Below are positions 2,753 through 63,185 of a stretch of DNA of 64,000 nt, piece by piece (within the stretch, counting starts at the first letter, position 1; each line of letters starts with the position of its first letter). Position numbers and translations under genes: made by a program. Under the pieces are notes generated by a model that saw only the letters and a list, made by a program, of their open reading frames with translations, was not told the DNA's origin and ran no database searches. Source of the DNA: Escherichia coli (GTDB lineage Bacteria > Pseudomonadota > Gammaproteobacteria > Enterobacterales > Enterobacteriaceae); the NCBI GenBank assembly GCA_002099625.1, contig GCA_002099625.1_4857.1; one strand, given 5' to 3'.

Positions 2753-2805
2753 GTTAAAACTCCTTAAGATAATGGTCGATTAGATAAGAGTTAATTGTTA
2801 ACTCT

Positions 2806-2829
2806 CACCTAAGTAATATATATCTGAAA
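2806..2829 (-). promoter_or_regulatory. class A phage promoter-like motif
   Basis: Minus-strand TTTCAGATATATATTACTTAGGTG; near-identical copies at 24757, 54641 and 63146, each about 50 nt upstream of a minus gene start. Confidence 0.6.
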
Positions 2830-2849
2830 ATAATTGTAATCGGACTAGG

Positions 2850-7623: not shown

Positions 7624-7682
7624 TTTAATTGCTCCTTAATACATGACATAAGTTCTGATTGAAACGTAAATTTCAGAGGTTC

Positions 7683-7706
7683 ACTGAGATAACATCTATC
7701 TGAAAT
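7683..7706 (-). promoter_or_regulatory. class B phage promoter-like motif
   Basis: Minus-strand TTTCAGATAGATGTTATCTCAGTG; related copies at 18184, 26453, 46767 and 47567. Confidence 0.55.
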
Positions 7707-7745
7707 AAAATAAAGCGTACCAGCCACCCCGAAGGATAGCTGGTA
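7704..7745 (-). terminator. intrinsic terminator
   Basis: Stem accagc/gctggt around ccccgaagg, T-run on minus strand; after stop of 7751..10768. Confidence 0.6.
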
Positions 7746-17840: not shown

Positions 17841-17845
17841 ACTAT

Positions 17846-18151: not shown

Positions 18152-18183
18152 CTACTTTTTCCTTTCTTTACAGTTAGGTTCAG

Positions 18184-18205
18184 TAAAATAACATCTATCT
18201 GAAAA
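18184..18205 (-). promoter_or_regulatory. class B phage promoter-like motif
   Basis: Minus-strand TTTTCAGATAGATGTTATTTTA. Confidence 0.5.
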
Positions 18206-18213
18206 GTCGTGCG

Positions 18214-18823: not shown

Positions 18824-18875
18824 TCTCTTAATTCCTCTTTACGTGGGTTGTTTCACATAAGTTAGTGGACTGATG

Positions 18876-18918
18876 TAAATAAAAAGGGACCTCCTCACCC
18901 GTGGGCAAGGAGGCGGGC
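18876..18918 (-). terminator. GC-rich hairpin, probable terminator
   Basis: Hairpin cctcc...ggagg preceded on plus strand by A-run; after stop of 18920..19414. Confidence 0.45.
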
Positions 18919-18919
18919 C

Positions 18920-19414: not shown

Positions 19415-19442
19415 CGGTGTTTAAGGGTCATACAATGACGAA

Positions 19443-19733
19443 TTACGCCGTTACCGGAACAGGGGTGATTAACAGCTCCCCTTCCACCTCACGTAACTGA
19501 TAACCGTGCATAACGTTGTAGGATTTAATGCCGTCGCGTTGTTTGGCTTTCGCGACGAGTTTTTCCAACACGCGGCTATGTGCACGAGTCATCTCTTCTT
19601 TCGAATAAACAACTTGGAGTACGTGCTGTTCGTCAATAACGGCACGGAACTGCAGTACATCACCGTCTTCAACGTTGTAAACGACTTCTTTAGACTTCGA
19701 CACTGTACGATTAATTTGCATTATTTTCTCCAT
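19443..19733 (-). CDS. hypothetical protein
   Basis: 96-aa ORF. Confidence 0.5.
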   Translation of the reverse strand: MEKIMQINRTVSKSKEVVYNVEDGDVLQFRAVIDEQHVLQVVYSKEEMTRAHSRVLEKLVAKAKQRDGIKSYNVMHGYQLREVEGELLITPVPVTA

Positions 19734-20523: not shown

Positions 20524-20532
20524 ATTCTCTCC

Positions 20533-21336: not shown

Positions 21337-21345
21337 GTTGGTACC

Positions 21346-22164
21346 TTATAAGGTGCCGATTAGCTCCGTCACCGCTTTACGCTTATTCGCATCCGCAGAC
21401 ATATATCGACCTACTTGAACTTCGCGCCAAGTAAAGCCGTAATAAATATCGCGTGTGAGTAACGTATCTGCGTTTGACAGAACGACCTTATTGCCATCGG
21501 CAGCTTGTTGTTTTAAAAGTTTCGCTAACTCGCGGTGGTCAGCTTGTGAAAATTCTTTGCTGTGATACTGCGCGTGTTTAGCCGTATCCGAAAGTGGGAT
21601 GTAGGGCGGGTCGGCGTATATCACAGCGTTAGATGGGCACTTATTTAGGATGTCGCGGAAGTCCGCGCAGAGCAGCTCGACGTTGGTTTCCGAACAACGT
21701 TTTGCCCACGCCAGAATTTCCTCTTCAGGGAAATAGACACCGTTCGGGTGTTGACCATAGGGCACGTTAAACCCACCCGACTGATTGTATCTGCACAAAC
21801 CATTGTAACCATGACGTGTAAGATACAGGAACATCGCGGCGCGCTGGAGATTAGGTTTCCCCGTGGTTGCTTCGCTGTTAAATCCCTCGCGTCGTTCCAT
21901 GTAGAGACCGCGGTCCGTCCCATTTGCAAAGAGCGCCTTTGCTTCCAGAATCAGCGCTTCCGGACGATCGCGCGCCATGGTCAGTAACTCGATTAAGTCC
22001 GGGTTCGTGTCGCCGAGAATATAGTTCGGGTATTTAGTGTTTAAAAACACTGACCCTGCGCCCACAAAAGGTTCAACGAAATACTCAGCATCCGGAAACA
22101 CCTGTAGCAGCTCGGGCAGTACACGACTCTTACCACCCATCCATTTTAAAATTGGTTTTATCAC
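21346..22164 (-). CDS. dam: DNA adenine methyltransferase (Dam-like, GATC-type)
   Basis: Motifs FVGAGSVFLNT (SAM binding), LYLTRHGYNGLCRYN and DPPY catalytic motif; 272 aa. Confidence 0.85.
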   Translation of the reverse strand: MIKPILKWMGGKSRVLPELLQVFPDAEYFVEPFVGAGSVFLNTKYPNYILGDTNPDLIELLTMARDRPEALILEAKALFANGTDRGLYMERREGFNSEATTGKPNLQRAAMFLYLTRHGYNGLCRYNQSGGFNVPYGQHPNGVYFPEEEILAWAKRCSETNVELLCADFRDILNKCPSNAVIYADPPYIPLSDTAKHAQYHSKEFSQADHRELAKLLKQQAADGNKVVLSNADTLLTRDIYYGFTWREVQVGRYMSADANKRKAVTELIGTL

Positions 22165-22167
22165 CCG

Positions 22168-23169
22168 TTAACATCCTCTCATGCCAGATTGAAACATATC
22201 ACTGATAGTCAGCCTGGTTGTAGTCTCCACCGGAATGCTAGGTTCTTCTTTCAGCACTCGATCGGCGCGGTTCCCATTCACCCGTTTCCAGCTAATAAGT
22301 TCAGGATCGCGTTTCAACGTTAGTGTACGCAGTACCTGCTTGCAACGTAAGATGTTACCGTACAGGTGATTTGCTGGATTATTATCAGCAGCTGTTTCAA
22401 TATAGACTTGGTCGGAATGACGTTGTGCGAAATCGAATAGCGCGCCCATTAGCCGGCGGCCAATGCCACGTTTACGGTGCGTGGGTGCAACGGTTAAACC
22501 AGAAAGTTCAACGACGCCTGGTGTAACCAAGCGCATCTGGGCAATACCGACGATATCATGGCCGTCTCGCCAAATTGCAGTCTCCACATTAGCGTGCTGA
22601 ATTCTTGCTATTACTGTTTCTGCTAACGGACCAATGTGTGTATAGTAGCCACGCATATCGTATTCTAGCTCTTCGCAAATTGCACCGCTAATCAAATTCA
22701 GGATAACGTCTTTATCTTCCTTGGTAAGTTCTGCGTATGCATCACCAGAAATAATCTTGATTTCTGATGCGGTGATTACTTTGTCAAACAGTTTAGAATG
22801 ACATGCCCAAACGATATCTGAAAGAACAAACCCTTTTTCGACCAGTTTTTGTTCAACATCGTCAGTAGGTGCTGGGCACGACATATATTCGAATCCGGTA
22901 TGGTCGAGCACAAGGGCCAAACCAACTTTATCGAATGCCCCAGGTACAAACTCCTCAAAATAGTGACAGGTTAGCGTAGGGTCACCGTGTCGATAGGTGG
23001 CCACTAAATAACCCTCCCAGGTTTCTTTATTCTTCACCACGTAAACAGAATAAGTCTCGTCCTTTAGAAACTCTTTTAGGCGGCGTGCTCGTACAGTATC
23101 GCTACCGACGTTATTTCGGAACTCGGCAGTGCGGATGCTGGTGCGAAACAATTTAGCCACAGTTTTCAT
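22168..23169 (-). CDS. GNAT-family acetyltransferase domain protein
   Basis: C-terminal motif A HRKRGIGRRLMGALFDF; start set at ATG 23169 (MKTVAKLF) so the ORF does not run through the terminator at 23221..23255. Confidence 0.5.
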   Translation of the reverse strand: MKTVAKLFRTSIRTAEFRNNVGSDTVRARRLKEFLKDETYSVYVVKNKETWEGYLVATYRHGDPTLTCHYFEEFVPGAFDKVGLALVLDHTGFEYMSCPAPTDDVEQKLVEKGFVLSDIVWACHSKLFDKVITASEIKIISGDAYAELTKEDKDVILNLISGAICEELEYDMRGYYTHIGPLAETVIARIQHANVETAIWRDGHDIVGIAQMRLVTPGVVELSGLTVAPTHRKRGIGRRLMGALFDFAQRHSDQVYIETAADNNPANHLYGNILRCKQVLRTLTLKRDPELISWKRVNGNRADRVLKEEPSIPVETTTRLTISDMFQSGMRGC

Positions 23170-23220
23170 TGTAATGCCCTCAAAAGGTATTGCTGTCACA
23201 ACATGAGGATAATGCGTAAA

Positions 23221-23255
23221 AAGACAAAAAATTAAGGGGTCCGAAGACCCCTTAA
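23221..23255 (-). terminator. intrinsic terminator
   Basis: Stem aaggggtc/gacccctt with cgaa loop, T-run on minus strand. Confidence 0.7.
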
Positions 23256-23258
23256 TGA

Positions 23259-23915
23259 TTACAGTTCCGGTTTGGAGACAAGCGTCGTCCAAGTTTCGGA
23301 ATGTTTGACACTGACGTGTGCTAGGCGATTCACCATGAACGCAAATTTGTCCATATGTTTCTGCACTTCGTTATCAGTCAGATTGCCAGCGATAACTTTA
23401 CCGTCTTTGGTCAGCACGATATAGCCGTGGTTGTTGTCTACCGTAGTGAACGCCACATCAATCGTAACCGGGTAAAGTTTCACCAGCGTCGGCAGAATGT
23501 GGCCAACACGATCGGCCATACCCGCAAGCTGGCCACAAAGGTCGGCTTTATCCTGCATGAACAAACGCAACATCGCTACTGCAAACACCGGATAGATGTT
23601 TTCGATTTGCGTGTCGTAACGAGACAGGCCGATAACTTCATCACCGCGGGTTAGCACCATGTTGTTCAGATGCGCTCCTTTATAGATGGTAAAGCGTACG
23701 TCGCTACCAAGGTTAACCGAAACGATTTCCTGACCAAGGTCAATCGGAAATTCACGTTCGATGTGAATCGTTTTCAGACGCTCACTGATCGGTACAATCA
23801 CATCCGGCTTCGGAATGCTAGATGTACGCGTGGATTCAGTAGTGCGCGTTTTTGTGGATTTAACCGCGCTGCTTGCCATTGAATCTTTTGCTACAGTTTT
23901 AGGGGCCTTCGCCAT
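23259..23915 (-). CDS. hypothetical protein
   Basis: 218-aa ORF with S/T-rich N-terminus. Confidence 0.5.
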   Translation of the reverse strand: MAKAPKTVAKDSMASSAVKSTKTRTTESTRTSSIPKPDVIVPISERLKTIHIEREFPIDLGQEIVSVNLGSDVRFTIYKGAHLNNMVLTRGDEVIGLSRYDTQIENIYPVFAVAMLRLFMQDKADLCGQLAGMADRVGHILPTLVKLYPVTIDVAFTTVDNNHGYIVLTKDGKVIAGNLTDNEVQKHMDKFAFMVNRLAHVSVKHSETWTTLVSKPEL

Positions 23916-23941
23916 GGTATACTCCTTAAGGTTTACACTAG

Positions 23942-24328
23942 TTAATCCCAGAAAGCTGCTTCTGGAAAGTCGTGTTCAAATGCCCGACGGTCATTCTCTA
24001 CACGGTTTAAATGTGTCGGTAAAGACACGCAGTTATTACAGATACAAAGTTCTTTATCCCCTTGACTGGGGTCAAAGTCGTACCATTTCCATTCAACGGT
24101 ATCTCGTTTCGGGAAGGTACCTTTGCAGTCGTCGCAGACCACTTCTTCAGCTGCAATTTCAGCCTGCAGTTTTTCCCAGCAGTTCTCGCACATGTAGTAC
24201 GTTTCGCGGCCCCATGGGTCGCACTCTGCCGTATAACGTGGAGCTATAGAGCCCACTTTAAGATGTTTACATCGTTCATCCTCTTCCGTCATCACGCGAC
24301 GGGTGATACCATTTACAAACCAATTCAT
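23942..24328 (-). CDS. Cys-rich putative zinc-binding protein
   Basis: Several CxxC pairs (CENCW, CDDCK, CICNNC) in 128 aa. Confidence 0.5.
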   Translation of the reverse strand: MNWFVNGITRRVMTEEDERCKHLKVGSIAPRYTAECDPWGRETYYMCENCWEKLQAEIAAEEVVCDDCKGTFPKRDTVEWKWYDFDPSQGDKELCICNNCVSLPTHLNRVENDRRAFEHDFPEAAFWD

Positions 24329-24339
24329 ACGTTTGCTCC

Positions 24340-24705
24340 CTACATCACTGCAGAAGGTTTACGTGCCATGACTTTAAGTCCCGTATCTCGTACCCGGATA
24401 GGACAATTATTCATGTAATCAATGCAGGATTCAATTTTGAAGCTGTGTCGACATTTACCGTTGATGGAACGGTAGACGATTTCGTAATTCAGGCGCAGTG
24501 TATCGGCAACCCGCATTAACGTTTCAATAGTCACGGCCTTCTCACGTTCATTTTTAATCGCAGATATTTGTGACGGCGAGCAACCTACTAATAACGCAAC
24601 GTCTTTCTGCGTAACGTCCTTCGCAGTAACACGTGTAATAATGTAAGAAAGACGAACCAAAAACGCTTTCTTTGCCAACACAACTGTTTGATGTTTAAAA
24701 CGCAT
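24340..24705 (-). CDS. HTH (XRE/Cro-like) transcriptional regulator
   Basis: Helix-turn-helix signature TQKDVALLVGCSPSQISAIKN; first gene after class A promoter. Confidence 0.55.
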   Translation of the reverse strand: MRFKHQTVVLAKKAFLVRLSYIITRVTAKDVTQKDVALLVGCSPSQISAIKNEREKAVTIETLMRVADTLRLNYEIVYRSINGKCRHSFKIESCIDYMNNCPIRVRDTGLKVMARKPSAVM

Positions 24706-24756
24706 TAGAATACTCCTTTAGATTAATAGTCGATTAGAGAGTTTAGTAGTAACTCT

Positions 24757-24780
24757 CACCTAGGTAATATATATCTGAAA
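24757..24780 (-). promoter_or_regulatory. class A phage promoter-like motif
   Basis: Minus-strand TTTCAGATATATATTACCTAGGTG, followed by hairpin GAGAGTT/AACTCTC and leader TAATCGAC. Confidence 0.6.
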
Positions 24781-24821
24781 TTTAGTGGACTGGAAGCAAA
24801 AAAGCATAAGACTGTTCTGAT

Positions 24822-24866
24822 CTGTAAAAAAGGCAATACCCTCTTACCCGAAGGTAAGAGGGGGTA
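24822..24866 (-). terminator. intrinsic terminator
   Basis: Stem accctcttacc/ggtaagagggggt with cgaagg loop, T-run on minus strand. Confidence 0.75.
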
Positions 24867-24869
24867 CAA

Positions 24870-25493
24870 CTAACCTGCCAAAATTCGTTCAACGATACGG
24901 GCGGCCTGTAACGCCATATCGTCGTCTGCTGCGATTCGCATCAGTGGGAATTTATCACCACCGTCTGTAGTGATGTGGAACGCAAAACGGTAATGGTCGC
25001 GTAATGCGTCCCAATCGGTCTGTGAGCGCAGATACTTCGCTGTCAGTACCTCATCATCCCAGTTCTTACCTTGTGCTTCTACGCGCTTCTTAAAGCGTTC
25101 TGTGGCGGTTTCGTAAGATACATCGGTTGCCACGTAAAGCTTTGGTGCGTTAATGTGGTCTAATACCCGCGAACGGAAAACTTCCCCTTTACCATCTACG
25201 CCCTGGTAGACAATGGTCGATTGACAAAAACGGTCAAAAATAACGACATCGTGCTCTGGTACAACGAAGTCCATTGTATATTGGAAATCCAGACACATCG
25301 CTTTGGCAATACGTTCACTAGAGGCGTGCTGGATAACCAGAGAGCGTGCACTAATACCGGCTTCAGTGGTATTCGTCGGGTGATTGACGATGATGGCATT
25401 AACGCCAGCGGAGCGCAACATCGCTTGAATCATTTTAGCGAGTGTTGATTTGCCAGAAAAATCTGGACCATCCAGCGCCACTGAGTTTAACAT
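24870..25493 (-). CDS. tmk: thymidylate (dTMP) kinase-like P-loop kinase
   Basis: P-loop GPDFSGKST and DRF...YQG motif; start at ATG 25493. Confidence 0.6.
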   Translation of the reverse strand: MLNSVALDGPDFSGKSTLAKMIQAMLRSAGVNAIIVNHPTNTTEAGISARSLVIQHASSERIAKAMCLDFQYTMDFVVPEHDVVIFDRFCQSTIVYQGVDGKGEVFRSRVLDHINAPKLYVATDVSYETATERFKKRVEAQGKNWDDEVLTAKYLRSQTDWDALRDHYRFAFHITTDGGDKFPLMRIAADDDMALQAARIVERILAG

Positions 25494-25549
25494 TTTATTC
25501 TTCCCCAAAAGTTTAATTAATTGTAGTGGTGTCACAATATAGCGACCAG

Positions 25550-25594
25550 ACGTAAAGAAAAAAAATAAAACAGGCACCCCGAAGGATGCCTGAC
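25550..25594 (-). terminator. intrinsic terminator
   Basis: Hairpin caggca..ccccgaagg..tgcctg with long A-run on plus strand (T-run on minus). Confidence 0.6.
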
Positions 25595-25605
25595 ATTAGA
25601 TGTTA

Positions 25606-26364
25606 TTACTCGATAGCCTTGTGGTTCTTCATTTCTGGTGTCCAGGTGTGCTCAATCCATGCTTCGATGACCGGCTTGATGCCCGGACTTTTGAAGAATG
25701 CATTTAATGACGGCCATTCCCCTAACGCGTACTTGTTAGTGAAATTGAGCGACATTACACTGAAGCCTTCGCGTTTGTTAAACAACGCAGAAGGGGCCAA
25801 GGAATAAGACAACATGGCCTGCGGCGTATCCGATTCGGGACGCAGCAGTGTCATGCGGCGGGTGACACGCAGTTCAATATCGTTGAAGTTAGCCCGGAGG
25901 TCTTCTTTAAATTTGACACTGCGGAAGAAACGATTTCCTGTTTCGGATGCTTTATTTACCAATCGCTCGGTTTGCATCACGTCTTTAAAATACGCATTGA
26001 TACATTCTTCAATGAAGACATAGCGTGGTGCAGCTTCACGCAGTGCTTCTAAGTCGAACTCTTTCCACGCGGGTATGAGTTCAGGCTTACGAGCGATGTG
26101 TTTAAAGAACATCCTGGCTGAGACTTCACGCAGTGCTTTCAGCAACCCGCGAATAACATCTTCCCGCGTTGCGTTAGTTGCGAAGAACTCAGTCGTGCCG
26201 TGTACAAAGGTAGCGCCAGTTTTAGCGCTGATGAGCTTATGCTCTATCATAATCGGCATCCCGCCCTTACCGATCATCTCTTCGTTATACAAAAACACAT
26301 AACGATATTCGCCACAGGCAGTGGGGACGGACAGGAACTCTTTCTTCGTAGTATTAACAGTCAT
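25606..26364 (-). CDS. hypothetical protein
   Basis: 252-aa ORF; class B promoter about 90 nt upstream. Confidence 0.5.
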   Translation of the reverse strand: MTVNTTKKEFLSVPTACGEYRYVFLYNEEMIGKGGMPIMIEHKLISAKTGATFVHGTTEFFATNATREDVIRGLLKALREVSARMFFKHIARKPELIPAWKEFDLEALREAAPRYVFIEECINAYFKDVMQTERLVNKASETGNRFFRSVKFKEDLRANFNDIELRVTRRMTLLRPESDTPQAMLSYSLAPSALFNKREGFSVMSLNFTNKYALGEWPSLNAFFKSPGIKPVIEAWIEHTWTPEMKNHKAIE

Positions 26365-26452
26365 GGTATTTCTCTCTTAGTTTAAGTTGGTGAGTTTTAA
26401 CCGACTCACAACGGCTTCTAGCATATGCTAAGGATGAAACGTAAATTTTGCA

Positions 26453-26482
26453 CGTCTCCCTAAGATAATATCTATCCGAAAA
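26453..26482 (-). promoter_or_regulatory. class B phage promoter-like motif
   Basis: Minus-strand TTTTCGGATAGATATTATCTTAGGGAGACGTG. Confidence 0.5.
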
Positions 26483-26518
26483 ACAATAGAGTCGACCCAC
26501 TCCCGAAGGAGTGGGTAT
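26478..26518 (-). terminator. intrinsic terminator
   Basis: Stem acccactcc/ggagtgggt with cgaa loop. Confidence 0.6.
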
Positions 26519-26521
26519 AAC

Positions 26522-27121
26522 TCACTGATGATCAACTTTCGGTTCAGACCACTCGGGGACTGGCGGAAGTTTAATATCAGTTGCGTATTCTGAAGGCACC
26601 GCGAGTGTGGTAAAGCCACGACACGCTAAATAGTGCTGCATTCGTGCTGCCTGATTCGCTGTATCGGTGATCACCAAATGGGTCTTACGCATAAGCGCGA
26701 GTACCGCCTGTCCTTCTTGCGGCGTGGGTGTACGTGGATGCTTACTGATAATACTCATTAACCAGTCACGTGCAATACCACCCACATTACAACTGGCCTC
26801 GCGCAAATCAACCACACCTTCACCCTCGCCCACCACCTGTTTGGTAGAGTTAGGATAAAAGCGATACGGTGCACGACGACGCTTACGACGTACTTCTGAA
26901 ATAGCACGTCCAAGTATCATCTGTGCGTGTTTAACGCTACAGCCGTCCACCGGTCTACGCATGTTCGTTACTAAACAGGCAATTTCTAACACCTTACCGA
27001 TTTGATAGCGACGCTTAAAGCCATGACGACTTATGTCTACGTATTCTGGAAGATTGCCGTTTTTATTGATGTTTGCAACCGTAATCAAAAACAGCGAATC
27101 GAGAATCATCTCAGACATCAC
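26522..27121 (-). CDS. hypothetical protein
   Basis: 199-aa ORF. Confidence 0.5.
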   Translation of the reverse strand: MMSEMILDSLFLITVANINKNGNLPEYVDISRHGFKRRYQIGKVLEIACLVTNMRRPVDGCSVKHAQMILGRAISEVRRKRRRAPYRFYPNSTKQVVGEGEGVVDLREASCNVGGIARDWLMSIISKHPRTPTPQEGQAVLALMRKTHLVITDTANQAARMQHYLACRGFTTLAVPSEYATDIKLPPVPEWSEPKVDHQ

Positions 27122-28057: not shown

Positions 28058-28534
28058 TTAAAGCTCCTTTACCATATCCTGGTATTCAGTTCGGAATCCG
28101 AAACGTTCATAAAACGCAATAGCACGGTCGTTATTACCGAGCACGTTAAGCTGCATCCATGCGCAGCCTTTTGATTTGCCATAGTTCTCTACGGCTTCGA
28201 TCAGTTCATGGCCAACGCCTTGTGAACGAACCGATTCATCTACAAAAAAGTTATATACCCAGAGGAAACGTTGTCCCTTTTTGGTGTAGCCAAAGGTGAT
28301 GAAGCCAACAGCCACACCACGGTCATCAACGGCGCAAGCGCACAGCGTACCTTCACCCCAAACCTCCTCCAGTTTTGAGATTTGATTAAACCCTTCACGA
28401 CCGTTTAAGTCGGCGAGTTTTATTTTCTGATCGTCGTATAACTTGTTGTGTAGTCCTAACAAATCCGCGTAGTATTTCTTTCCATACGGGGAGTTGGGCT
28501 TGGTGACAAAAACGATTTTCATCACACCCTCCAA
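28058..28534 (-). CDS. GNAT-family N-acetyltransferase
   Basis: Motif A RSQGVGHELIEAV and motif B AIAFYERFGF; 158 aa. Confidence 0.65.
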   Translation of the reverse strand: MEGVMKIVFVTKPNSPYGKKYYADLLGLHNKLYDDQKIKLADLNGREGFNQISKLEEVWGEGTLCACAVDDRGVAVGFITFGYTKKGQRFLWVYNFFVDESVRSQGVGHELIEAVENYGKSKGCAWMQLNVLGNNDRAIAFYERFGFRTEYQDMVKEL

Positions 28535-29016
28535 TACATCTGGTAAGCACCTACCTTAAAGCCAGCTTTGTCGTAGAGCGACTTCGCGGCAGCGTTACCG
28601 GCGTTCACGGACAGGTGAACAACTGTACACCCTTTTTCCGTTGCGGATTTCTTTACCGCATCCATCAACGCGGTGCCGTAACCTTTACCACGTGCGCTGC
28701 TGCTAACGACCAGTGAGGATACCGACATCATCGTCACACCCTCTTCAGTCATCGTGCGGTATTGCGCAAAGCCATACAAGACACCGTCGTCCACGACCGC
28801 CAGTAAACGACCCCGGAAGCGCTCGGCTAACGATTTAGCCGGCGTAAAACGGACATTAATACCCGTCTCTTTTCGATAGCTTTCTATTTCGCTTTTGTCC
28901 AGCTCGTTATAAAGCGCGAGGATATCTGTGGAATATTTCCTGCCGTTAGCCGTGTCTGGCCCCACTATGGTAATAATCTTCATCAGTTCACCTCGGCCAG
29001 CGATTGCTTCGTCCAC
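28522..29016 (-). CDS. GNAT-family N-acetyltransferase
   Basis: Motif A ARGKGYGTALMDAV and motif B KSLYDKAGF; 164 aa; tandem with 28058..28534. Confidence 0.65.
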   Translation of the reverse strand: MDEAIAGRGELMKIITIVGPDTANGRKYSTDILALYNELDKSEIESYRKETGINVRFTPAKSLAERFRGRLLAVVDDGVLYGFAQYRTMTEEGVTMMSVSSLVVSSSARGKGYGTALMDAVKKSATEKGCTVVHLSVNAGNAAAKSLYDKAGFKVGAYQMYWRV

Positions 29017-43937: not shown

Positions 43938-45716
43938 TTAGCGGCCGATTTTAGCAATGTCTTCTTCGGTCGGTCTGATGTACGGGTCCAGTTTAGGATT
44001 CCGCATCATTACCAAACTTGGGTTGGTCTTCATGTACGGGTTGAGGATGTTCGCCTTAAACGGTGCCGACTTAGGAATATAATAGACGTTACCACATTCC
44101 AGATGCGACGCGGATGCGTGCTTAGTACGGTCGTTCAAGTTAACGGTCTTGCCTCCTTTCTTCGAACGCTTAGCATCGGTTTCGGTTTGACCGATGGCGT
44201 GCGTAGACACTGCCAATACCATTGATTCTGTAGAGGCATTGAAGAAACTGATACCGCCGTTGCTCGTAATGGTGCGCATCACCAGATTGAGCACGATCTG
44301 TTTGTTCAGTGCGTCTCGAATAGACTTCGCCGCTGTCTCTGGAGTCCGATGTTCCAACTGCCCCAGCTTCCAACGTATTTTCGAGATCGTTGTGGTAAAG
44401 CCACGTTGGCCCAACAGTAAGTAATCGGTTACCGTGAGACGTTTTCCGTACATAGACGGAATATCATCTTGTTTGGTAAGACGAGTACGCACCATCAGCT
44501 GCGTGGTATACCAGAGGAAATCAAACATATCCAAATCATCAGGGATGGACGGATCGTTTGCCATCAGCTCACCACGGAAGGTGCTGTTGACATAGCGTTC
44601 ACATTCCTGGAAGTGGCTGTCCATACTGCGACTCAGTTCGATATCCGAAGGCTTCAGTCCGCGAATACTGCGGCCCAACACTTCACGCCAAGACGCTGCA
44701 GAGTTGAGGTTTGCAATATCTTCGTCCATTGCCATTTCATTAATCTGTGTAAACAGCCCCGGCAGTGTTGGTGCACGACCGTTCTTACTGTTCTGTTTAC
44801 CTGCGTAATAGTGCGCCGCTTTGAAGAATGCGGCAGTCGCTACCAGCAACAGATGTTCGTTTTGATCCCAACGCCCTGCATCGGTGTTAGGCATATCTTC
44901 ACGTTTAACCAACAGCACGTACTGGATGGTCTTCGCGAGTTGTGGCTCACCGGATTGAATCACCACATACTTCGTTAAGTCCACATCACGTACTTTAATT
45001 GCTGGCCAAATCGCCACATCAACGCCCGCATAACGCTTCACGGCTTGTTTAAAGCCATAACGCCCAAAGAGCCAATACATCAGTGGCTTCTCATCGGTGT
45101 CGTGTCCAATCTGTCCGGTTGAGACAAACAGATTCGATGTACCTGGCAAGAACAGCTGCTCAGGGCGACCATTCACCAGAATCTTCGTTGGTTTCTTACA
45201 GAACTTGATCGACACCTTGCGAGTGAAGTCAAAGTTAATAAAGATACCACCATGCTCACGACATATACCAGGTTGATGGATTACAGGTGCTACGTGGTAC
45301 GTTGTACCATAGTAGTTCATTAAGCCGCCACGACGAATAAACGGCAGGCTCATTGGTCGTTGTACCGGGCGAGGATCACCTGGAACTCGGAACGAGGCCA
45401 TTACCATATACGTGTCAGTGGATGAGATGTTAATAATTGACCGGCCACGATTATTTCGTGAATTGTTATCCGACTTCGATAACTTAAAGATAAAAGCTTC
45501 AAACGGCGACATTTGGCGACAACCTAGTACCGTTAACCCTTCTGGTAATTTCGGGTTATCGATTTCATCATACGTCAACTCACGACGTAGAATGGTTGCC
45601 ACACGATCATGTATCCCATCTTTAGCTTGTGTGTACCCAACTCCTTCTGCAATTGCACGATTAAAAGGCACTATTTCGCCTGCCTCTTTAATCTTCCTAA
45701 TCGCATCTTTAAACAC
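43938..45716 (-). CDS. large hypothetical protein, possible virion protein
   Basis: 592-aa ORF. Confidence 0.55.
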   Translation of the reverse strand: MFKDAIRKIKEAGEIVPFNRAIAEGVGYTQAKDGIHDRVATILRRELTYDEIDNPKLPEGLTVLGCRQMSPFEAFIFKLSKSDNNSRNNRGRSIINISSTDTYMVMASFRVPGDPRPVQRPMSLPFIRRGGLMNYYGTTYHVAPVIHQPGICREHGGIFINFDFTRKVSIKFCKKPTKILVNGRPEQLFLPGTSNLFVSTGQIGHDTDEKPLMYWLFGRYGFKQAVKRYAGVDVAIWPAIKVRDVDLTKYVVIQSGEPQLAKTIQYVLLVKREDMPNTDAGRWDQNEHLLLVATAAFFKAAHYYAGKQNSKNGRAPTLPGLFTQINEMAMDEDIANLNSAASWREVLGRSIRGLKPSDIELSRSMDSHFQECERYVNSTFRGELMANDPSIPDDLDMFDFLWYTTQLMVRTRLTKQDDIPSMYGKRLTVTDYLLLGQRGFTTTISKIRWKLGQLEHRTPETAAKSIRDALNKQIVLNLVMRTITSNGGISFFNASTESMVLAVSTHAIGQTETDAKRSKKGGKTVNLNDRTKHASASHLECGNVYYIPKSAPFKANILNPYMKTNPSLVMMRNPKLDPYIRPTEEDIAKIGR

Positions 45717-45727: not shown

Positions 45728-46732
45728 TCAGAGAATCATCCCAACGAGTGCTACCCCTGCAGCCAAATACGCGGGAATGGATTTCAAGAACTCCGAGCTA
45801 TCTTTTCGCTGATAAGCTCGGGACTCGTATTGGTCTTTACGAACATCGGAACGCAACTTAAGCTCATTCGTCTGGATTGCGTTAAGGGTGTTAATCCTCT
45901 CCTTCTCCAGCGCCAGATTATTAAGTTGCGTACGATAATCGAGGTCTTGCCGATTCTTTTTCTCATCGAGATCTTGCAACTTGGCCTGATACGTGGCTTC
46001 CAGCTTCGCACGAACATCTCGCAACTCTGGAATGTTATCGAGCCACCGATAACGCCTCGCTTCATCTTCAGATGCAAACGCCCGGAACGGGGACATCGGG
46101 TCATCGAAAGCGTACATTATCATCTTACCCCCTTCGACACACTCCGCACCACCGATTACCATGTAAATACCCTCGTCGTAATACTTCGATCGAATCGGTT
46201 CGACTTCCAACATCGTTGTATAGAACCTCAGCCACTTTAAAGGTGCTGGGTCTTCGTACTTCTGCACAACTACCACGCCCAAGGCAAATTCTTTACGATC
46301 CCCTCCAGGCTTACCAATAACCTCAGAATCGAGTTTTACTGGTTGGGTAGAGAAAGCCATTCCTAGCTTCTTCAACACCACCAAGTCGCCTCGCATTAAT
46401 GCACCGATATCATCAACTACATACATCAGCGTTGTTTCGCCGTTCGTAGTTAATTCCTTACATATCTGCGCATACTGCTTTGGCGAATGTGCGTCGCGCA
46501 AACCAGATAGGTTAGCACCGTTCGCAAACACCGTATAGGTCACGTAAATAACAATCCCAAATTCCGCCGCTGTGGTGGACGACGGGGCTAAAACAAAATG
46601 CCCGCCACTGAGTTCAGTGACGTAAATGGGAAACCCGGTATTATTTTCGTACGTGATAGTCTTCGACACGGCACCACGGTGCATGGGCCGCTGGGTTAGC
46701 GTTGGCTGAACGTCTAAATCATAACGGTTCAT
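45728..46732 (-). CDS. hypothetical protein with C-terminal TM anchor
   Basis: Start at ATG 46732 (MNRYDL); C-terminus IPAYLAAGVALVGMIL; class B promoter 35 nt upstream. Confidence 0.5.
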   Translation of the reverse strand: MNRYDLDVQPTLTQRPMHRGAVSKTITYENNTGFPIYVTELSGGHFVLAPSSTTAAEFGIVIYVTYTVFANGANLSGLRDAHSPKQYAQICKELTTNGETTLMYVVDDIGALMRGDLVVLKKLGMAFSTQPVKLDSEVIGKPGGDRKEFALGVVVVQKYEDPAPLKWLRFYTTMLEVEPIRSKYYDEGIYMVIGGAECVEGGKMIMYAFDDPMSPFRAFASEDEARRYRWLDNIPELRDVRAKLEATYQAKLQDLDEKKNRQDLDYRTQLNNLALEKERINTLNAIQTNELKLRSDVRKDQYESRAYQRKDSSEFLKSIPAYLAAGVALVGMIL

Positions 46733-46766
46733 TGAGCATCCCAGTAATAATACCAAAAGAATTATT

Positions 46767-46790
46767 CACGTAGATAATATCTATCTCAGA
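46767..46790 (-). promoter_or_regulatory. class B phage promoter-like motif
   Basis: Minus-strand TCTGAGATAGATATTATCTACGTG. Confidence 0.5.
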
Positions 46791-46837
46791 TTACTTTGGG
46801 CACGGGTTCATACCCAGTGCCCGTAACGTAAAAAACT

Positions 46838-47536
46838 TTAGGGTATTAGGCGTTGGGCTATTTCGCGGAGTTGGTCGCGGGTTAAATCAGCCAACTTCTG
46901 GTCGCCGAAGCCCAACTTCAGACCCAGCTCGTATCCAGCTTGCGGATACGTGTTCGTGTTTGCTACTGAGAGGAGTGCATCGGCTATCTTTACCATCGTT
47001 AACTCGAGAGACGCATACGGGGCGGGGATCGGCTGATTCACGATTTGGTAATTATAACGCACTGCGGCGTTATCGTAGTCAAACTCCATCCTTCTGCCGA
47101 GAACGTTAAACGACTCCGCAGAATAACTACCAAATGGGTGATTGGCTTTTTCCCACAAATCTTTCCGTTCAGTAAACCCAGTCGCGAAGTTCTGACGTAT
47201 GGTGTCGAATATTTGCGTTGCCTGGCTAGGGTGTATATTTTTCAGCTCATTGTAGTCGTAGTCGGCGATGGAATATAGAGTGAACACAACACCGTTTATA
47301 TTTAACTGCGGATAATCCATCCGCAGACTATCATCACCTTGTAAATGAAGTTCCCACATCCTCACCCACTGCAATATCGCACTTACCGCATCGTGACTGA
47401 GATAAAAATTAGTAGGTTCTTCAGAATTTTCACGGAAGGGAACAGAGCATTCCGATGCAAAAAAGCCGGCTGCCATAAATCCTCTGCCGTCGAACATAGG
47501 CGCAACTAATCTTGATTTTTCTAAATTGATTACCAT
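46838..47536 (-). CDS. hypothetical protein
   Basis: 232-aa ORF; SD TAAGGAG; class B promoter 30 nt upstream. Confidence 0.55.
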   Translation of the reverse strand: MVINLEKSRLVAPMFDGRGFMAAGFFASECSVPFRENSEEPTNFYLSHDAVSAILQWVRMWELHLQGDDSLRMDYPQLNINGVVFTLYSIADYDYNELKNIHPSQATQIFDTIRQNFATGFTERKDLWEKANHPFGSYSAESFNVLGRRMEFDYDNAAVRYNYQIVNQPIPAPYASLELTMVKIADALLSVANTNTYPQAGYELGLKLGFGDQKLADLTRDQLREIAQRLIP

Positions 47537-47566
47537 TACTGTCTCCTTAAGTTAAAACCGAACGAC

Positions 47567-47595
47567 TCTCTCCCTAAGATAATATCTATCTATAA
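47567..47595 (-). promoter_or_regulatory. class B phage promoter-like motif
   Basis: Minus-strand TTTATAGATAGATATTATCTTAGGGAGAG. Confidence 0.55.
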
Positions 47596-47599
47596 ATTT

Positions 47600-47642
47600 T
47601 TAGAAAAAAAGAAAAAGCTTACTCCCCGAAGGGAGTAAGCTA
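47600..47642 (-). terminator. intrinsic terminator
   Basis: Stem gcttactccc/gggagtaagc with cgaa loop; T-run on minus strand. Confidence 0.75.
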
Positions 47643-47671: not shown

Positions 47672-49969
47672 TTAGCCGCCAGCGCCTTCACCGCCAGTAC
47701 CTGGCTGGGTACCGCCGCCAACATCACCAGCATTACCACCGTCAGTACCGCCGGTACCGTTGGAAGTAGTAGTGACGTTGAACGCCAGTTTCTCTTCCAC
47801 GAACTTGGTGATACCTTTAATCCAGATCAGACCAGTGATCGGGCAGTGGCAGATGTGCGCGTTACGAGGCTGTACTGCCAGCTCTTTGCTGGTAGCGCCG
47901 TTACGCTGGATGTTGATGTTGGTTACCATGATCGGAGACCAGAAGTGGTTACCCCAGTTCAGAACACAGTAAGAACCATCATCAGCGGTTGGAACTTTCA
48001 GAACCCACTGCAGGCGGCGAGTCCAGCTGCCGTCAGCTTCGTTCTTCACACGCCAGCGGTCATCGTTGGTGGTGATAACTTCGTACTCGTAGCGATCGCC
48101 CAGCAGACGCTGGTCACCCTGAACCAGCAGCAGCATTGCAGCAGTCGGTTCGTCAGTTGCGATAACAACTTTCGGCAGTGCGTTCGGGTCCGCAGTCAGC
48201 AGGCGCAGAGCCGGCATGAAGCGAGAGTCCTGGATAGCACGAGTTACCTGGTCACCGATACGCTGTACCAGACCCTGACGGGCGTTGATGAGCGCATCTT
48301 TGGTATCCAGAGACTGGATCACTTTGTCCACTTCGTAGTCGCTTTCGCTGTACCACGGAGCAACCCAGTGACGGCCCAGGCCGCGGATAGCAGGTTTGTC
48401 CCACGGAGTGATCATGGACGCAGCTGCGTTCTTAACCGCTTCGGTGTAAGACAGAGTCTGAGTGATAGCCAGCATTTCGTTACGGATGTTAACCGCAGAA
48501 ACGAGGTCGTCCAGACGTTCGGTGTCGTCGTATTCAACGCCAACCGGAGATTTGGTCATGATCGGAGAACCGTACTGCAGTTTGTAGTTCTCTTGTTCCC
48601 AAATCGGGTCGAGCAGAAGGCCCTGGGTTCTCCGGTTCTCGTTGGTACGAGTACCGTCGAAGCGCCAGCCCAGCAGCTCCAGTTTCAGGTTGTCGATGAT
48701 CACTTTACCGGTGCCGCTTTCGATATCAACAGCAGTACCAGTTGCGTCGTACAGACCTTCGATTTCCAGAGACGGTGCAGTCACGTCAACACGACCAGAG
48801 AACTGACCGTTGGTGAACAGAGACATGCTGATGTTCATGGAATAACGAATGGTGTAATCGTTCTGTGCCAGAGCGGCCAGTGCCGGGATTTCAGCACCTT
48901 TCCAGTCCAGAGACTTGGCGTTCAGGGAGAACACGGTGCGACGGAACTGCAGGACCAGCTCACGGCCATCACCTTCAGGAGGACGCTGGAAAGTAGCGAA
49001 CTGCATGTCGCGTACGTTCAGTTTGATCAGCGCACCATCTTTCGCTTCTTCGGTCGGCTTACGCACAGACAGCAGCAGGCTACCCAGCGCCGCACCCGGT
49101 GCGATTTCGTCGGTTTCATCGTAACCTTCCTGCACGATACCCGGATGGGCAGACAGCTGGAACAGGTTCAGACGACGTTCAGAGAAGCTCAGGTAGTTGG
49201 TCGGATACGCCGGCACACGACCCAGCTGAACGTTTTCGTTTTCGATGATGTCTTCGGATACGAAGAACTTCGCGTTCTCGCCGGTTTCCATCACGTAAGG
49301 AACGATACGGATAGCATCGTCCTGCAGGACTTTGTGGTTAGACAGCGCGTTATGCAGCGGCTGACGGTTGTCTTCAACCACGTCTTTGGTCAGCAGGGCG
49401 TTCAGGATACCACGAGTTACAGTAGTAACTTTGGTACGAACGGTGATGCCGACGTCGTTGGTGTCCACAGTGATGGTCGGGAACAGGGTTTCTGCAAACT
49501 TGGATTGAGTTTCCAGAGCACGCACGTTCAGCGTCCAGGTCAGACCCAGGTTTTTGTCCAGGTCTTTGTTGGTGTAGTATTCGGTTGCGACCAGCGGAGT
49601 TTTACCGTAGTCAGCAGCCAGAGATGCTGCACCGGAAATAGCGATCGGCATGTAGCTGGCATATTCCGGCTTCGCGCTCTCAGCAGCAACACGGGTCATG
49701 AAGTCATCTTCGTGACCGGCAGCAGCCAGAATCATCGCAGAAGCAACCTGAGCAGCGTGGCTCATGGTTTTGCCAGGGTTTACAGCTTCGTAGTGCTGCT
49801 GAGCAGTGTCACGCAGGTTGGTGAAGCCGGCAGCATTTTTACGTACAGATTCGCCAACGGCTACGGTTTGCCATACGTCATTAGCGGAAGAGCCTGCCTT
49901 GGCAGCAGCGACCAGAGCATTGCCCTGCTGAACCAGCTGGTCCAGACTAGCGATACGGGTATCTTTCAT
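47672..49969 (-). CDS. abundant large structural protein, major capsid or sheath candidate
   Basis: 765-aa ORF with strongly biased codon usage, strong downstream terminator, Gly-rich C-terminal tail; the antisense 715-aa plus ORF has R/V/F/Q-rich junk-like composition. Confidence 0.55.
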   Translation of the reverse strand: MKDTRIASLDQLVQQGNALVAAAKAGSSANDVWQTVAVGESVRKNAAGFTNLRDTAQQHYEAVNPGKTMSHAAQVASAMILAAAGHEDDFMTRVAAESAKPEYASYMPIAISGAASLAADYGKTPLVATEYYTNKDLDKNLGLTWTLNVRALETQSKFAETLFPTITVDTNDVGITVRTKVTTVTRGILNALLTKDVVEDNRQPLHNALSNHKVLQDDAIRIVPYVMETGENAKFFVSEDIIENENVQLGRVPAYPTNYLSFSERRLNLFQLSAHPGIVQEGYDETDEIAPGAALGSLLLSVRKPTEEAKDGALIKLNVRDMQFATFQRPPEGDGRELVLQFRRTVFSLNAKSLDWKGAEIPALAALAQNDYTIRYSMNISMSLFTNGQFSGRVDVTAPSLEIEGLYDATGTAVDIESGTGKVIIDNLKLELLGWRFDGTRTNENRRTQGLLLDPIWEQENYKLQYGSPIMTKSPVGVEYDDTERLDDLVSAVNIRNEMLAITQTLSYTEAVKNAAASMITPWDKPAIRGLGRHWVAPWYSESDYEVDKVIQSLDTKDALINARQGLVQRIGDQVTRAIQDSRFMPALRLLTADPNALPKVVIATDEPTAAMLLLVQGDQRLLGDRYEYEVITTNDDRWRVKNEADGSWTRRLQWVLKVPTADDGSYCVLNWGNHFWSPIMVTNINIQRNGATSKELAVQPRNAHICHCPITGLIWIKGITKFVEEKLAFNVTTTSNGTGGTDGGNAGDVGGGTQPGTGGEGAGG

Positions 49970-54588: not shown

Positions 54589-54640
54589 GGTAATACTCCT
54601 TTAGCTTAATAGTCGATTGAGTTGATAGATTGTCTTCTAT

Positions 54641-54664
54641 CACCTAGGTAATATATATCTGAAA
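54641..54664 (-). promoter_or_regulatory. class A phage promoter-like motif
   Basis: Minus-strand TTTCAGATATATATTACCTAGGTG followed by hairpin GATAG/CTATC and leader. Confidence 0.6.
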
Positions 54665-54689
54665 TTATTTTTATTCAGAGTACACCCTC

Positions 54690-63100: not shown

Positions 63101-63145
63101 ATTCCTTAAGTAATGGTCAGTTAGTAAAGCAAATCATTGTTTGCT

Positions 63146-63169
63146 CACCTAGGTAATATATATCTGAAA
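63146..63169 (-). promoter_or_regulatory. class A phage promoter-like motif
   Basis: Minus-strand TTTCAGATATATATTACCTAGGTG followed by hairpin GAGCAAA/TTTGCT. Confidence 0.6.
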
Positions 63170-63185
63170 ATTATTGTAATCGGAG

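What the first reader, a model, noticed from the sequence alone, without database searches (positions are those of the whole stretch)
47567..47595. Class B promoter-like motif at five sites, related to class A
The minus-strand pattern AGATAGAT(A/G)TTATCT followed by AGGGAG or AGTGA occurs at 7683..7706, 18184..18205, 26453..26482, 46767..46790 and 47567..47595, always 30-90 nt upstream of a gene start and usually right beside a terminator. The 3' end TTATCTTAGGGAGAG resembles the TATAGGGAGA initiation region of T7-type promoters. Classes A and B share the core CAGATAnATnTTAyCT, suggesting two temporal classes read by one polymerase. Class B drives abundant-looking and structural-module genes (47672..49969 neighbourhood), class A drives regulator-type genes.
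Basis: partly seen in the sequence, partly recalled or inferred. Interest (0 to 1): 0.6.

Follow-up and report, generated by a model that had tools for sequence, protein, structure and literature searches.

The report
Early promoters of a jumbo phage
The repeated motif is real. It is this giant Salmonella phage's version of the early promoter that phiKZ-type phages read with an RNA polymerase carried in the virion, so it is an expected element of a known kind and not a T7-like or structural-gene promoter.

Summary
The window is an SPN3US-like jumbo Salmonella phage (Seoulvirus, 99.7% identical to phage 1252). The five "class B" sites exist as reported.

Class B (TTTC-AGATAGATATTATCT-nnGTGA) nearly matches the published predicted early-promoter consensus of phages OBP and N1M2. 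Class A (TTTC-AGATATATATTACCT-AGGTG) has the same sequence and spacing as phiKZ early promoters.

In SPN3US the motif occurs about 23 times, always on the gene strand. Class B heads every operon that holds a non-virion RNA polymerase gene, including gp76-gp77-gp78 in this window. It does not drive the major capsid gene, which lies upstream and ends at a terminator.

Each site, and its class, is conserved in the Erwinia phage Asesino, although the proteins downstream are only 22-78% identical.

Best reading: these are early promoters read by the injected multisubunit virion RNA polymerase. The T7 resemblance is superficial. Whether A and B differ in timing is untested. They do differ in leader architecture: class A transcripts start with a covarying 5' hairpin, and class B transcripts mostly do not. 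This is a known kind of element of modest interest.

The parts
47562..47603 (-). Class B early-promoter site (15-mer core 47577-47591; inferred start site near 47572). It sits just after the capsid-gene terminator and heads a 232-aa ORF.
   Evidence: The same site and class follow the capsid gene in SPAsTU, Asesino, phiEaH2 and Huxley.
46757..46798 (-). Class B early-promoter site (core 46772-46786; inferred start site near 46767). It heads gp76-gp77-gp78.
   Evidence: The core is an invariant island in the alignment with SPAsTU, Asesino, phiEaH2 and an IMG/VR contig. The ortholog pair has the same class.
26448..26489 (-). Class B site (core 26463-26477, GGATAGATATTATCT). It heads the gp99 homolog at 25606-26364.
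18171..18212 (-). Class B site (core 18186-18200, AGATAGATGTTATTT). It heads the gp112 homolog at 17846-18151.
   Evidence: The G and TT variant is conserved in Asesino.
7672..7713 (-). Class B site (core 7687-7701). It heads the gp125 homolog at 7291-7623.
63136..63177 (-). Class A site (core 63151-63165) heading the gp55 homolog. A 5' hairpin follows at 63127-63146.
54631..54672 (-). Class A site (core 54646-54660) heading the 47-aa gp66 homolog. A hairpin follows at 54624-54641.
24747..24788 (-). Class A site (core 24762-24776) heading the HTH gene 24340-24705 (gp101 homolog). A hairpin follows at 24737-24757.
2796..2837 (-). It heads the gp135 homolog. A hairpin follows at 2786-2806.
47616..47641 (-). 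Intrinsic terminator (cUUCGg loop plus T-run) that ends the capsid gene, immediately upstream of the 47591 promoter.
   Evidence: Compensatory stem changes in relatives.
7718..7745 (-). Intrinsic terminator immediately upstream of the 7701 promoter.
47672..49969 (-). Major capsid protein gene (gp75 homolog). It lies upstream of the motif and is not driven by it.
46838..47536 (-). 232-aa ORF of unknown function (phrog_15414) between the two class B sites. It is absent from SPN3US.
45728..46732 (-). gp76 homolog, function unknown. It is the first gene of the operon behind the 46786 promoter.
43938..45716 (-). gp77 homolog: N-terminal part of the beta subunit of the non-virion RNA polymerase.
   Evidence: PHIKZ123 in PDB 7OGP, E 3e-20. 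(phrog_2943, polymerase). (PMC5105663).
42230..43906 (-). gp78 homolog. It is essential in SPN3US, where the authors suggested a regulatory role.
   Evidence: No similarity to PHIKZ068 by BLASTP.

Best explanation
The sites are early promoters of an SPN3US-like, phiKZ-related (Chimalliviridae) jumbo phage. The multisubunit virion RNA polymerase (vRNAP), injected with the DNA, reads them. In SPN3US that enzyme is gp42, gp218, gp240, gp241 and gp244.

The element spans about 30 bp:
- a T-tract (TTTC) at about -23 to -20;
- the 15-mer at about -19 to -5, with its AT-rich centre near -10;
- a conserved (G/T)G purine where transcription is inferred to start, at the 5th nucleotide after the 15-mer, give or take one.

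Class B (AGATAGATATTATCT) and class A (AGATATATATTACCT) are two sub-variants of the same promoter. They differ at about -14 (G or T) and about -7 (T or C). Class B heads the operons that encode the second, non-virion polymerase, along with many early genes of unknown function.

Shown here: the anatomy of the sites, their statistics and placement, their conservation, and their match to published promoter consensus sequences. Inferred, not shown: which polymerase reads them, the exact start site, and the timing.
For: 1. Identity of the phage. The window is 99.7% identical to Salmonella phage 1252 and collinear with SPN3US 55459-116811.

2. Match to published consensus sequences. PMC7058600, Table 2 gives predicted early promoters:
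- N1M2: TBYAWWWWWTTTCARRYAKATATTATYWAAGTGWA
- OBP: ...TTTYARRYAKATATTATYWWADTG
- 201phi2-1: ...TTTRARR_BTATATTACDWHDGTG
- phiKZ: TATATTAC
Class B fits the OBP and N1M2 strings almost base for base. Class A fits the 201phi2-1 and phiKZ strings. PhiKZ sites read directly from its genome (aaaaTTTgAGATnTATATTACtaanGTG) have the same spacing as class A.

3. What is known of this promoter kind. A review (PMC7598289) describes a conserved, AT-rich motif of about 10 nt centred near -10. It can be found upstream of early operons in every RNAP-encoding jumbo phage and is assigned to the vRNAP. PhiKZ differential RNA-seq describes an extended -10 box plus a T-rich motif upstream of -19 at 32 start sites.

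4. Placement. There are about 23 sites in SPN3US, all on the gene strand. In this region 9 of 9 are intergenic although only 6.5% of the DNA is.

5. Logic of the target genes. All non-virion RNAP core genes sit behind class B sites:
- gp22-gp23, with gp23 similar to PHIKZ055 (E 5e-39);
- gp34-gp35, with gp34 similar to PHIKZ071 (E 2e-29);
- gp76-gp77, with gp77 similar to PHIKZ123 (E 3e-20).
No motif lies directly upstream of a virion RNAP gene or of a gene annotated as structural.

6. Conservation. In Erwinia phage Asesino, 11 promoters whose downstream proteins are orthologous (22-78% identity) keep the motif. Ten keep the class, and even idiosyncratic variants are kept. The 15-mer is an invariant island in otherwise diverged spacers.

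7. Inferred 5' UTRs of 30-36 nt at 3 of the 5 class B sites match the 31-40 nt typical of phiKZ.
Against: - No transcript 5' ends, timing data or rifampicin data exist for SPN3US-type phages in the literature I could reach. The polymerase assignment therefore rests on homology with phiKZ, 201phi2-1 and AR9.
- According to a 2017 paper, no vRNAP of this phage group had been purified at that date, so promoter recognition had not been shown directly.
- Class B contains TATTAT, which matches the host -10 hexamer at 5 of 6 positions. Some host-polymerase activity cannot be excluded.
- One SPN3US site (25214) lies inside a coding region.
Confidence: 0.85

Rival explanations
1. They are host sigma-70 promoters used by Salmonella RNA polymerase early in infection.
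For: The class B core holds TATTAT, which matches TATAAT at 5 of 6 positions and keeps A at position 2 and T at position 6. The DNA upstream is AT-rich.
Against: - No -35 hexamer sits at the right spacing. The sigma-70 scan does not call any of the sites on their own strand.
- Class A, with the same architecture, has C where the essential last T of the -10 hexamer would be.
- Conservation runs over about 25 contiguous bp rather than two hexamers.
- The homologous phiKZ motif marks transcripts that do not depend on host polymerase.
- Sigma-70-like matches in 7001-27000 number 17, below the shuffle mean of 27.1 (sd 5.6).
Confidence: 0.05
2. They are middle promoters read by the non-virion RNA polymerase, with class A early and class B later.
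For: The two sub-variants are kept apart over evolution, which could reflect two recognition specificities.
Against: - The genes for the non-virion polymerase themselves lie behind class B sites, so that enzyme cannot be what first reads them.
- The phiKZ middle motif (weak, AT-rich, TACT near -22 to -24) and the late motif (TATG at the start site) look quite different.
- Class B matches the OBP and N1M2 consensus, which those authors assigned to early operons.
Confidence: 0.05
3. The 15-mers are mainly operators for a phage DNA-binding protein such as the HTH protein gp101, and not polymerase recognition sites.
For: - AGATATTATCT inside class B is an 11-nt palindrome, and class A holds the palindrome ACCTAGGT (sequence).
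- One SPN3US site (161907, AGATGTCATCT) keeps the symmetry through a double change.
- An HTH gene lies behind a class A site.
Against: - All sites have one orientation relative to genes.
- The flanks are asymmetric and conserved: a T-tract upstream and GTGA downstream.
- Three class B sites break the palindrome by a single change (AGATGTTATYT).
- The motif is homologous to mapped phiKZ promoters.
- A dual role as promoter plus operator is not excluded.
Confidence: 0.04
4. They are promoters for a T7-type single-subunit RNA polymerase.
For: TTATCTTAGGGAGAG at 47567-47595 and at 26453-26482 resembles the TATAGGGAGA of T7.
Against: - Three of the five class B sites lack it.
- The part upstream of the start site has no likeness to the T7 -17 to -5 region.
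- The SPN3US annotation lists only beta/beta'-like polymerase genes.
Confidence: 0.01

Closest known systems
Early (virion RNA polymerase) promoters of phiKZ and 201phi2-1: TATATTAC core, T-rich tract upstream, start site about 7 nt after the core. Mapped by primer extension, differential RNA-seq and ONT-cappable-seq.
   Same: - The architecture and spacing are the same (TTTnAGATnTATATTACnnnnGTG).
- There are tens of copies per genome, all co-oriented with genes.
- They lie upstream of early operons, including non-virion polymerase genes.
- Class A is nearly the same sequence.
   Different: - Class B has G at about -14 and TTATCT instead of TTACCT.
- In the 49 kb of phiKZ that I examined, promoter-context sites are essentially all of the TATATTAC type.
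- No transcript mapping exists for the Seoulvirus group.
Predicted early promoters of Pseudomonas phage OBP and Klebsiella phage N1M2 (TTTCARRYAKATATTATYWAAGTGWA; PMC7058600, Table 2).
   Same: Class B fits this consensus almost position for position, including the TTTC, the G/T at the position that separates classes A and B, the ATATTAT, and the downstream AGTGA.
   Different: - Those are single degenerate consensus strings from MEME and were not tested experimentally either.
- In the SPN3US and Erwinia group the two variable positions are coupled. The counts are G...T 15, T...C 6 and mixed 2, which gives two fairly clean sub-classes.
PeSL cassettes of T4-type phages: composite terminator plus early-promoter motifs that flank variable genes (PMC4122927).
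   Same: - A terminator hairpin lies directly next to a repeated early promoter.
- The slot between the two class B sites after the capsid gene holds 0 genes in SPN3US, 1 in this window and in Asesino, and 3 in SPAsTU.
   Different: - PeSL promoters are host sigma-70 early promoters.
- I did not show that the indels here arose by recombination between the repeats. The SPN3US deletion endpoints lie between the two promoters, not in them.
T7 class III promoters (TAATACGACTCACTATAGGGAGA).
   Same: A TA-GGGAGA box lies at the inferred start site of two class B sites. Both are phage-specific promoters followed by a purine-rich start.
   Different: - The polymerase type is different (multisubunit against single-subunit).
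- The upstream recognition sequence is unrelated.
- The box is not a property of the class.

Membership tests
phiKZ-type (Chimalliviridae) vRNAP early promoter | A highly conserved AT-rich element of about 10 nt (TATATTAC-like), centred near -10 of early transcripts. | tested here: met
   The sequence element is present and nearly invariant. It has the same register as phiKZ sites read from the genome and as the published consensus strings. The position relative to the start site is inferred, not measured.
phiKZ-type (Chimalliviridae) vRNAP early promoter | A T-rich tract upstream (beyond about -19). | tested here: met
   TTTC or TTTT or ATTT lies directly 5' of the 15-mer at 8 of the 9 window sites. 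The site at 46786 has TCTG instead. The description of this feature comes from phiKZ differential RNA-seq.
phiKZ-type (Chimalliviridae) vRNAP early promoter | Many copies per genome, intergenic, co-oriented with downstream genes, and heading early operons that include non-virion RNAP genes. | tested here: met
   There are about 23 sites in SPN3US, all on the + strand, and 9 of 9 are intergenic. They stand upstream of gp22-23, gp34-35 and gp76-77.
phiKZ-type (Chimalliviridae) vRNAP early promoter | The genome encodes a virion and a non-virion multisubunit RNA polymerase. | tested here: met
   Non-virion subunits were matched to the PDB 7OGP chains. Virion subunits gp42, gp218, gp240, gp241 and gp244 were shown by mass spectrometry in PMC5105663.
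phiKZ-type (Chimalliviridae) vRNAP early promoter | Transcripts start here immediately after infection, without new protein synthesis and in the presence of rifampicin. | not testable with these tools
   No SPN3US-group transcriptome was found.
T7-type single-subunit RNAP promoter | A conserved -17 to +6 sequence ending in TATAGGGAGA at every member. | tested here: not met
   Only 2 of the 5 class B sites have TAGGGAGA, and the upstream part is unrelated.
T7-type single-subunit RNAP promoter | A single-subunit RNA polymerase gene in the same genome. | tested here: not met
   The SPN3US annotation has only beta/beta'-like polymerase genes, and the literature agrees. I did not run an exhaustive profile search of all ORFs.
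Bacterial sigma-70 promoter | -35 and -10 hexamers separated by 16-18 bp. | tested here: not met
   The consensus scan calls none of the sites on their strand. Class A has C at the last -10 position.
PeSL-like mobile terminator/promoter cassette | A terminator stem-loop fused to a repeated early promoter, flanking variable genes and mediating indels. | tested here: inconclusive
   Terminator adjacency holds at 3-4 of 5 sites. One flanked slot has variable gene content. Recombination at the repeats was not shown.

The most novel reading that the evidence does not exclude
Classes A and B are two functionally distinct early regulons read by one virion polymerase.

- Class B (TTATCT) has plain leaders of variable length. 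It heads the conserved core early operons, including all the non-virion polymerase genes.
- Class A (TTACCT) comes as a fixed cassette. The promoter is followed by a hairpin that begins at the first transcribed nucleotide, often by an AATCGACTATTA box, and then by a start codon 56-58 nt from the 15-mer. It heads small accessory genes.

The difference would set promoter strength or timing, or the fate of the mRNA. The hairpin might protect the 5' end from RppH- and RNase E-dependent decay, or affect handling of transcripts made in the early infection vesicle. No such split of the early class has been reported for phiKZ-type phages in the papers I could read.
Probability: 0.3. Interest if true: 0.5.

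Novelty: new member of a known kind. Interest (0 to 1): 0.3.

Why it matters
The result gives an immediately usable map of early transcription units for SPN3US-type phages, which serve as the Salmonella genetic model for nucleus-forming jumbo phages. There are nine start regions in this window and about 23 in the genome. They identify the genes expressed first from the injected DNA, including the second polymerase.

The result also corrects a misleading picture of a T7-like promoter driving capsid genes.

The one part that goes beyond expectation is the pair of sub-variants. They are conserved between genera and have different leader structures. That makes a concrete question about how the still-unpurified virion polymerase reads its promoters, and about how early mRNAs are handled, testable with a few point mutations and one RNA-seq time course.

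Tried and rejected
- **Literal motif strings in the paper library.** The search returned only unrelated hits.
- **Papers and supplements I could not read.** Lavysh 2016 (Virology), Ceyssens 2014, Cornelissen 2012 and Weintraub 2019 are not held. The supplements of the three transcriptome papers are not held either. I therefore could not check whether the SPN3US motif was already tabulated. I also could not take exact phiKZ start-site coordinates or use SPN3US protein timing.
- **Exact 15-mer scans of IMG/VR.** Only loci from jumbo contigs (about 200-260 kb) were useful, after filtering with the position-weight matrix.
- **RNAalifold on the class A leaders.** It found no consensus structure, because MAFFT cannot align hairpins with different stem and loop lengths. 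The evidence for the hairpin therefore rests on single-sequence folds with shuffle controls and on orthologous comparisons.
- **Rfam.** No known RNA family in the window.
- **SPN3US gp22 as chimallin, and gp78 as the phiKZ gp68 sigma-like subunit.** There was no hit in PDB, Pfam or BLASTP, so I claim neither.
- **Palindrome as operator.** I considered this and ranked it low (see rival explanations).

Full report
**What is there**

The five reported 15-mers are present on the minus strand at 7687-7701, 18186-18200, 26463-26477, 46772-46786 and 47577-47591. With up to two mismatches the pattern AGATAGATRTTATCT has eight hits, all on the minus strand, against 0.11 expected from dinucleotide-preserving shuffles. 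A weight-matrix scan adds a ninth site, class A, at 2811-2825. It also shows a clean gap between real sites (score 38 or more) and background (12 or less). Each site is followed within 34-98 nt by a start codon, and all but the 26477 site have a recognisable Shine-Dalgarno sequence.

**Which genome**

The window is 99.7% identical to Salmonella phage 1252 and about 96-98% identical to SPN3US (Seoulvirus, 240 kb). It is collinear with SPN3US 55459-116811 in reverse orientation. SPN3US belongs to the phiKZ-related, nucleus-forming jumbo phages, which carry two multisubunit RNA polymerases. One is packaged in the virion (gp42, gp218, gp240, gp241, gp244) and one is made after infection (PMC5105663; PMC13282480).

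**What the sites precede**

In the window the class B sites head these genes:
- a 232-aa ORF (46838-47536) that SPN3US lacks;
- gp76 (45728-46732), followed by gp77 and gp78;
- gp99;
- gp112;
- gp125.

The class A sites head gp55, gp66 (47 aa), gp101 (a Cro/C1-type HTH protein) and gp135. Apart from the HTH protein, none of the nine first genes has a recognisable function.

gp77 (43938-45716) matches chain E (PHIKZ123) of the phiKZ non-virion polymerase structure 7OGP (E 3e-20), and Thomas et al. call it the N-terminal fragment of that enzyme's beta subunit.

The major capsid gene (47672-49969) lies upstream of the 47591 site and ends at a strong terminator (47616-47641). The motif therefore does not drive it.

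**Genome-wide picture**

In SPN3US the matrix finds about 23 sites, every one on the + strand, which is the gene strand. In the stretch that matches the window only 6.5% of the DNA is intergenic, yet all nine sites are (P about 2e-11).

All core genes of the non-virion polymerase lie in operons headed by class B sites:
- two tandem sites before gp22-gp23, where gp23 resembles PHIKZ055 (E 5e-39);
- one before gp34-gp35, where gp34 resembles PHIKZ071 (E 2e-29);
- one before gp76-gp77.

No site lies directly upstream of a virion-polymerase gene or of a gene annotated as structural. An enzyme cannot be the first to transcribe its own genes. If the phage is independent of host polymerase as phiKZ is, class B must therefore be read by the injected virion enzyme. 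This step is an inference.

**Match to known promoters**

Table 2 of PMC7058600 lists predicted early promoters:
- N1M2: TBYAWWWWWTTTCARRYAKATATTATYWAAGTGWA
- OBP: BSHAWWWWWTTTYARRYAKATATTATYWWADTG
- 201phi2-1: TTAWTAVAA_HYWTTTRARR_BTATATTACDWHDGTG
- phiKZ: TATATTAC

Class B (TTTC AGATAGATATTATCT nAGTGAA) fits the first two almost base for base. Class A (TTTC AGATATATATTACCT AGGTG) fits the last two. I read phiKZ sites directly from its genome, and they have the form aaaaTTTgAGATnTATATTACtaanGTG. That is the same register as class A.

Three further literature points support the assignment:
- The review PMC7598289 states that such a motif, AT-rich, about 10 nt long and centred near -10, can be found upstream of early operons in every RNAP-encoding jumbo phage and defines the promoters of the virion polymerase.
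- PhiKZ differential RNA-seq describes an extended -10 box plus a T-rich tract upstream of -19 at 32 early start sites.
- Transcription from 28 early promoters, including expression of the non-virion polymerase subunits, is described.

Transferring that geometry puts +1 at the G five nucleotides after the 15-mer, give or take one. The inferred 5' UTRs are then 36, 35, 94, 30 and 59 nt, against the 31-40 nt typical of phiKZ.

**Conservation**

SPAsTU is about 79% identical to the window in DNA. The Erwinia phage Asesino (Erskinevirus) is about 70% identical in coding DNA. Both carry the motif at the corresponding positions.

Alignments of four intergenic regions show the 15-mer as an invariant island in diverged spacers. 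The neighbouring terminators keep their stems through compensatory changes.

I paired promoters by their downstream proteins, which gave 11 SPN3US-Asesino pairs with 22-78% protein identity. Ten of the 11 keep the class, and the eleventh changes only at the first class-defining position (GC to TC). Site-specific oddities are kept as well: GCATAGATATTATCT, the tandem AGATTGAT... and AGGCAGAT... pair before gp22, and AGATAGATGTTATT.. Each site is therefore under its own purifying selection.

**Are A and B really two classes?**

In SPN3US the two distinguishing positions are coupled. The counts are G...T 15, T...C 6 and mixed 2. The family is thus mostly bimodal, with rare hybrids.

The leaders differ. 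In class A a 6-9 bp hairpin begins exactly at the inferred +1 G. Its sequence varies from site to site and between orthologs, but the pairing is kept. Examples are GAGAGTT/AACTCTC, GAGCAAA/TTTGCT, GATAG/CTATC and GAGATTG/TAATCTT.

Among non-identical sites from SPN3US, the window, Asesino, SPAsTU and IMG/VR loci (mostly jumbo-phage contigs), the median folding energy of the first 30 nt is:
- class A: -6.5 kcal/mol (n = 31, mean z -2.5);
- class B: -2.4 kcal/mol (n = 39, mean z -0.5);
- Mann-Whitney p = 0.0013.

Many class A leaders then carry AATCGACTATTA and place the start codon 56-58 nt from the 15-mer. Class B leaders vary in length and mostly lack the hairpin.

Whether this reflects different timing, strength or mRNA fate cannot be told from sequence.

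**Rivals**

- **Host sigma-70 promoters.** There is no -35 element. Class A has C at the key last -10 position. The consensus scan does not call the sites.
- **Middle promoters of the non-virion enzyme.** This conflicts with the location of that enzyme's own genes and with the published middle and late motifs.
- **Operator palindromes.** AGATATTATCT is an 11-nt palindrome. However, the strict orientation, the asymmetric flanks and single-base breaks of the symmetry argue against this as the main role.
- **T7-type promoters.** Only two of the five sites have TAGGGAGA, and the phage has no single-subunit polymerase in its annotation.

**Verdict**

The element is the Seoulvirus representative of a known kind, the virion-polymerase early promoter of phiKZ-related phages. 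A motif of this kind is expected in any such genome, so its presence is not surprising. I could not verify whether it was already tabulated for SPN3US, because Lavysh 2016 is not held.

The positional conservation of two sub-variants, and the class-A-specific 5' hairpin, are the only features that may be new.

Noticed in passing
window 24737-24757, 63127-63146, 54624-54641, 2786-2806 (minus strand); SPN3US and other loci: Every class A promoter is followed by a 6-9 bp hairpin that starts at the inferred first transcribed G. Its sequence differs between sites and orthologs but the pairing is kept. Of 31 non-identical class A sites, 17 (55%) have a hairpin of -6 kcal/mol or stronger that starts within 3 nt of that G, against 5 of 39 (13%) class B sites. 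It may protect the 5' end of the transcript. Many of these leaders then carry the box AATCGACTATTA about 15 nt before the ribosome-binding site.
   Followed up: partly
window 46838-47536 (between the class B sites at 47591 and 46786): The slot between the two class B promoters downstream of the capsid gene varies in gene content. It holds 0 genes in SPN3US (the promoters are 198 bp apart), 1 gene here and in Asesino, and 3 genes in SPAsTU. This recalls the variable gene slots flanked by terminator/promoter cassettes (PeSLs) in T4-type phages.
   Followed up: partly
window 47616-47641, 7718-7745, 26496-26515, 24839-24862, 25571-25592, 23231-23256, 17814-17839 (minus strand): Many terminators share a C-TTCG-G tetraloop on GC-rich stems. 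Orthologous terminators in relatives keep their stems through compensatory changes.
   Followed up: partly
window 7001-27000: Sigma-70-like promoter matches are fewer than in shuffled sequence: 17 against 27.1 (sd 5.6). This would fit a genome that does not rely on host polymerase.
   Followed up: no
window 26441-26454 and 7656-7669 (approximate; minus strand; leaders of the class B sites at 26477 and 7701): These two class B leaders share the 14-mer AAATTTACGTTTCA about 12-20 nt downstream of the inferred start site. Its meaning is unknown.
   Followed up: no
window 47577-47587 and the other class B cores; class A cores such as 24756-24765: Class B contains the 11-nt palindrome AGATATTATCT. 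Class A contains the palindrome ACCTAGGT, which spans the end of the core and the start region. One SPN3US site (161907) keeps the class B symmetry through a double change (AGATGTCATCT). These could be operator sites, or the symmetry could be coincidental.
   Followed up: partly
window 2917-3707, 4163-4553, 11734-13199, 28525-28974: These segments have no counterpart in SPN3US and carry extra or replaced ORFs (for example 2924-3352 and 4191-4562). The first lies about 90 nt upstream of the class A promoter at 2825.
   Followed up: no
SPN3US 15602-15736 (L003); Asesino 16325-16460 (L249): Two tandem, individually deviant class B sites precede gp22, the gene just upstream of the non-virion polymerase gene gp23. 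Both sites and their deviations are conserved in Asesino. In phiKZ the gene at the same relative position (PHIKZ054) has an early and a middle start site. gp22 shows no BLASTP similarity to PHIKZ054.
   Followed up: partly
phiKZ locus L248 (3586, 14585, 37985, 11195): Several phiKZ early promoters are also followed by short hairpins that begin at or near the ATG/GTG start region, for example ACATG...CATGT and ATGTA..TACAT. A hairpin next to the start site may therefore be general in this phage family.
   Followed up: no
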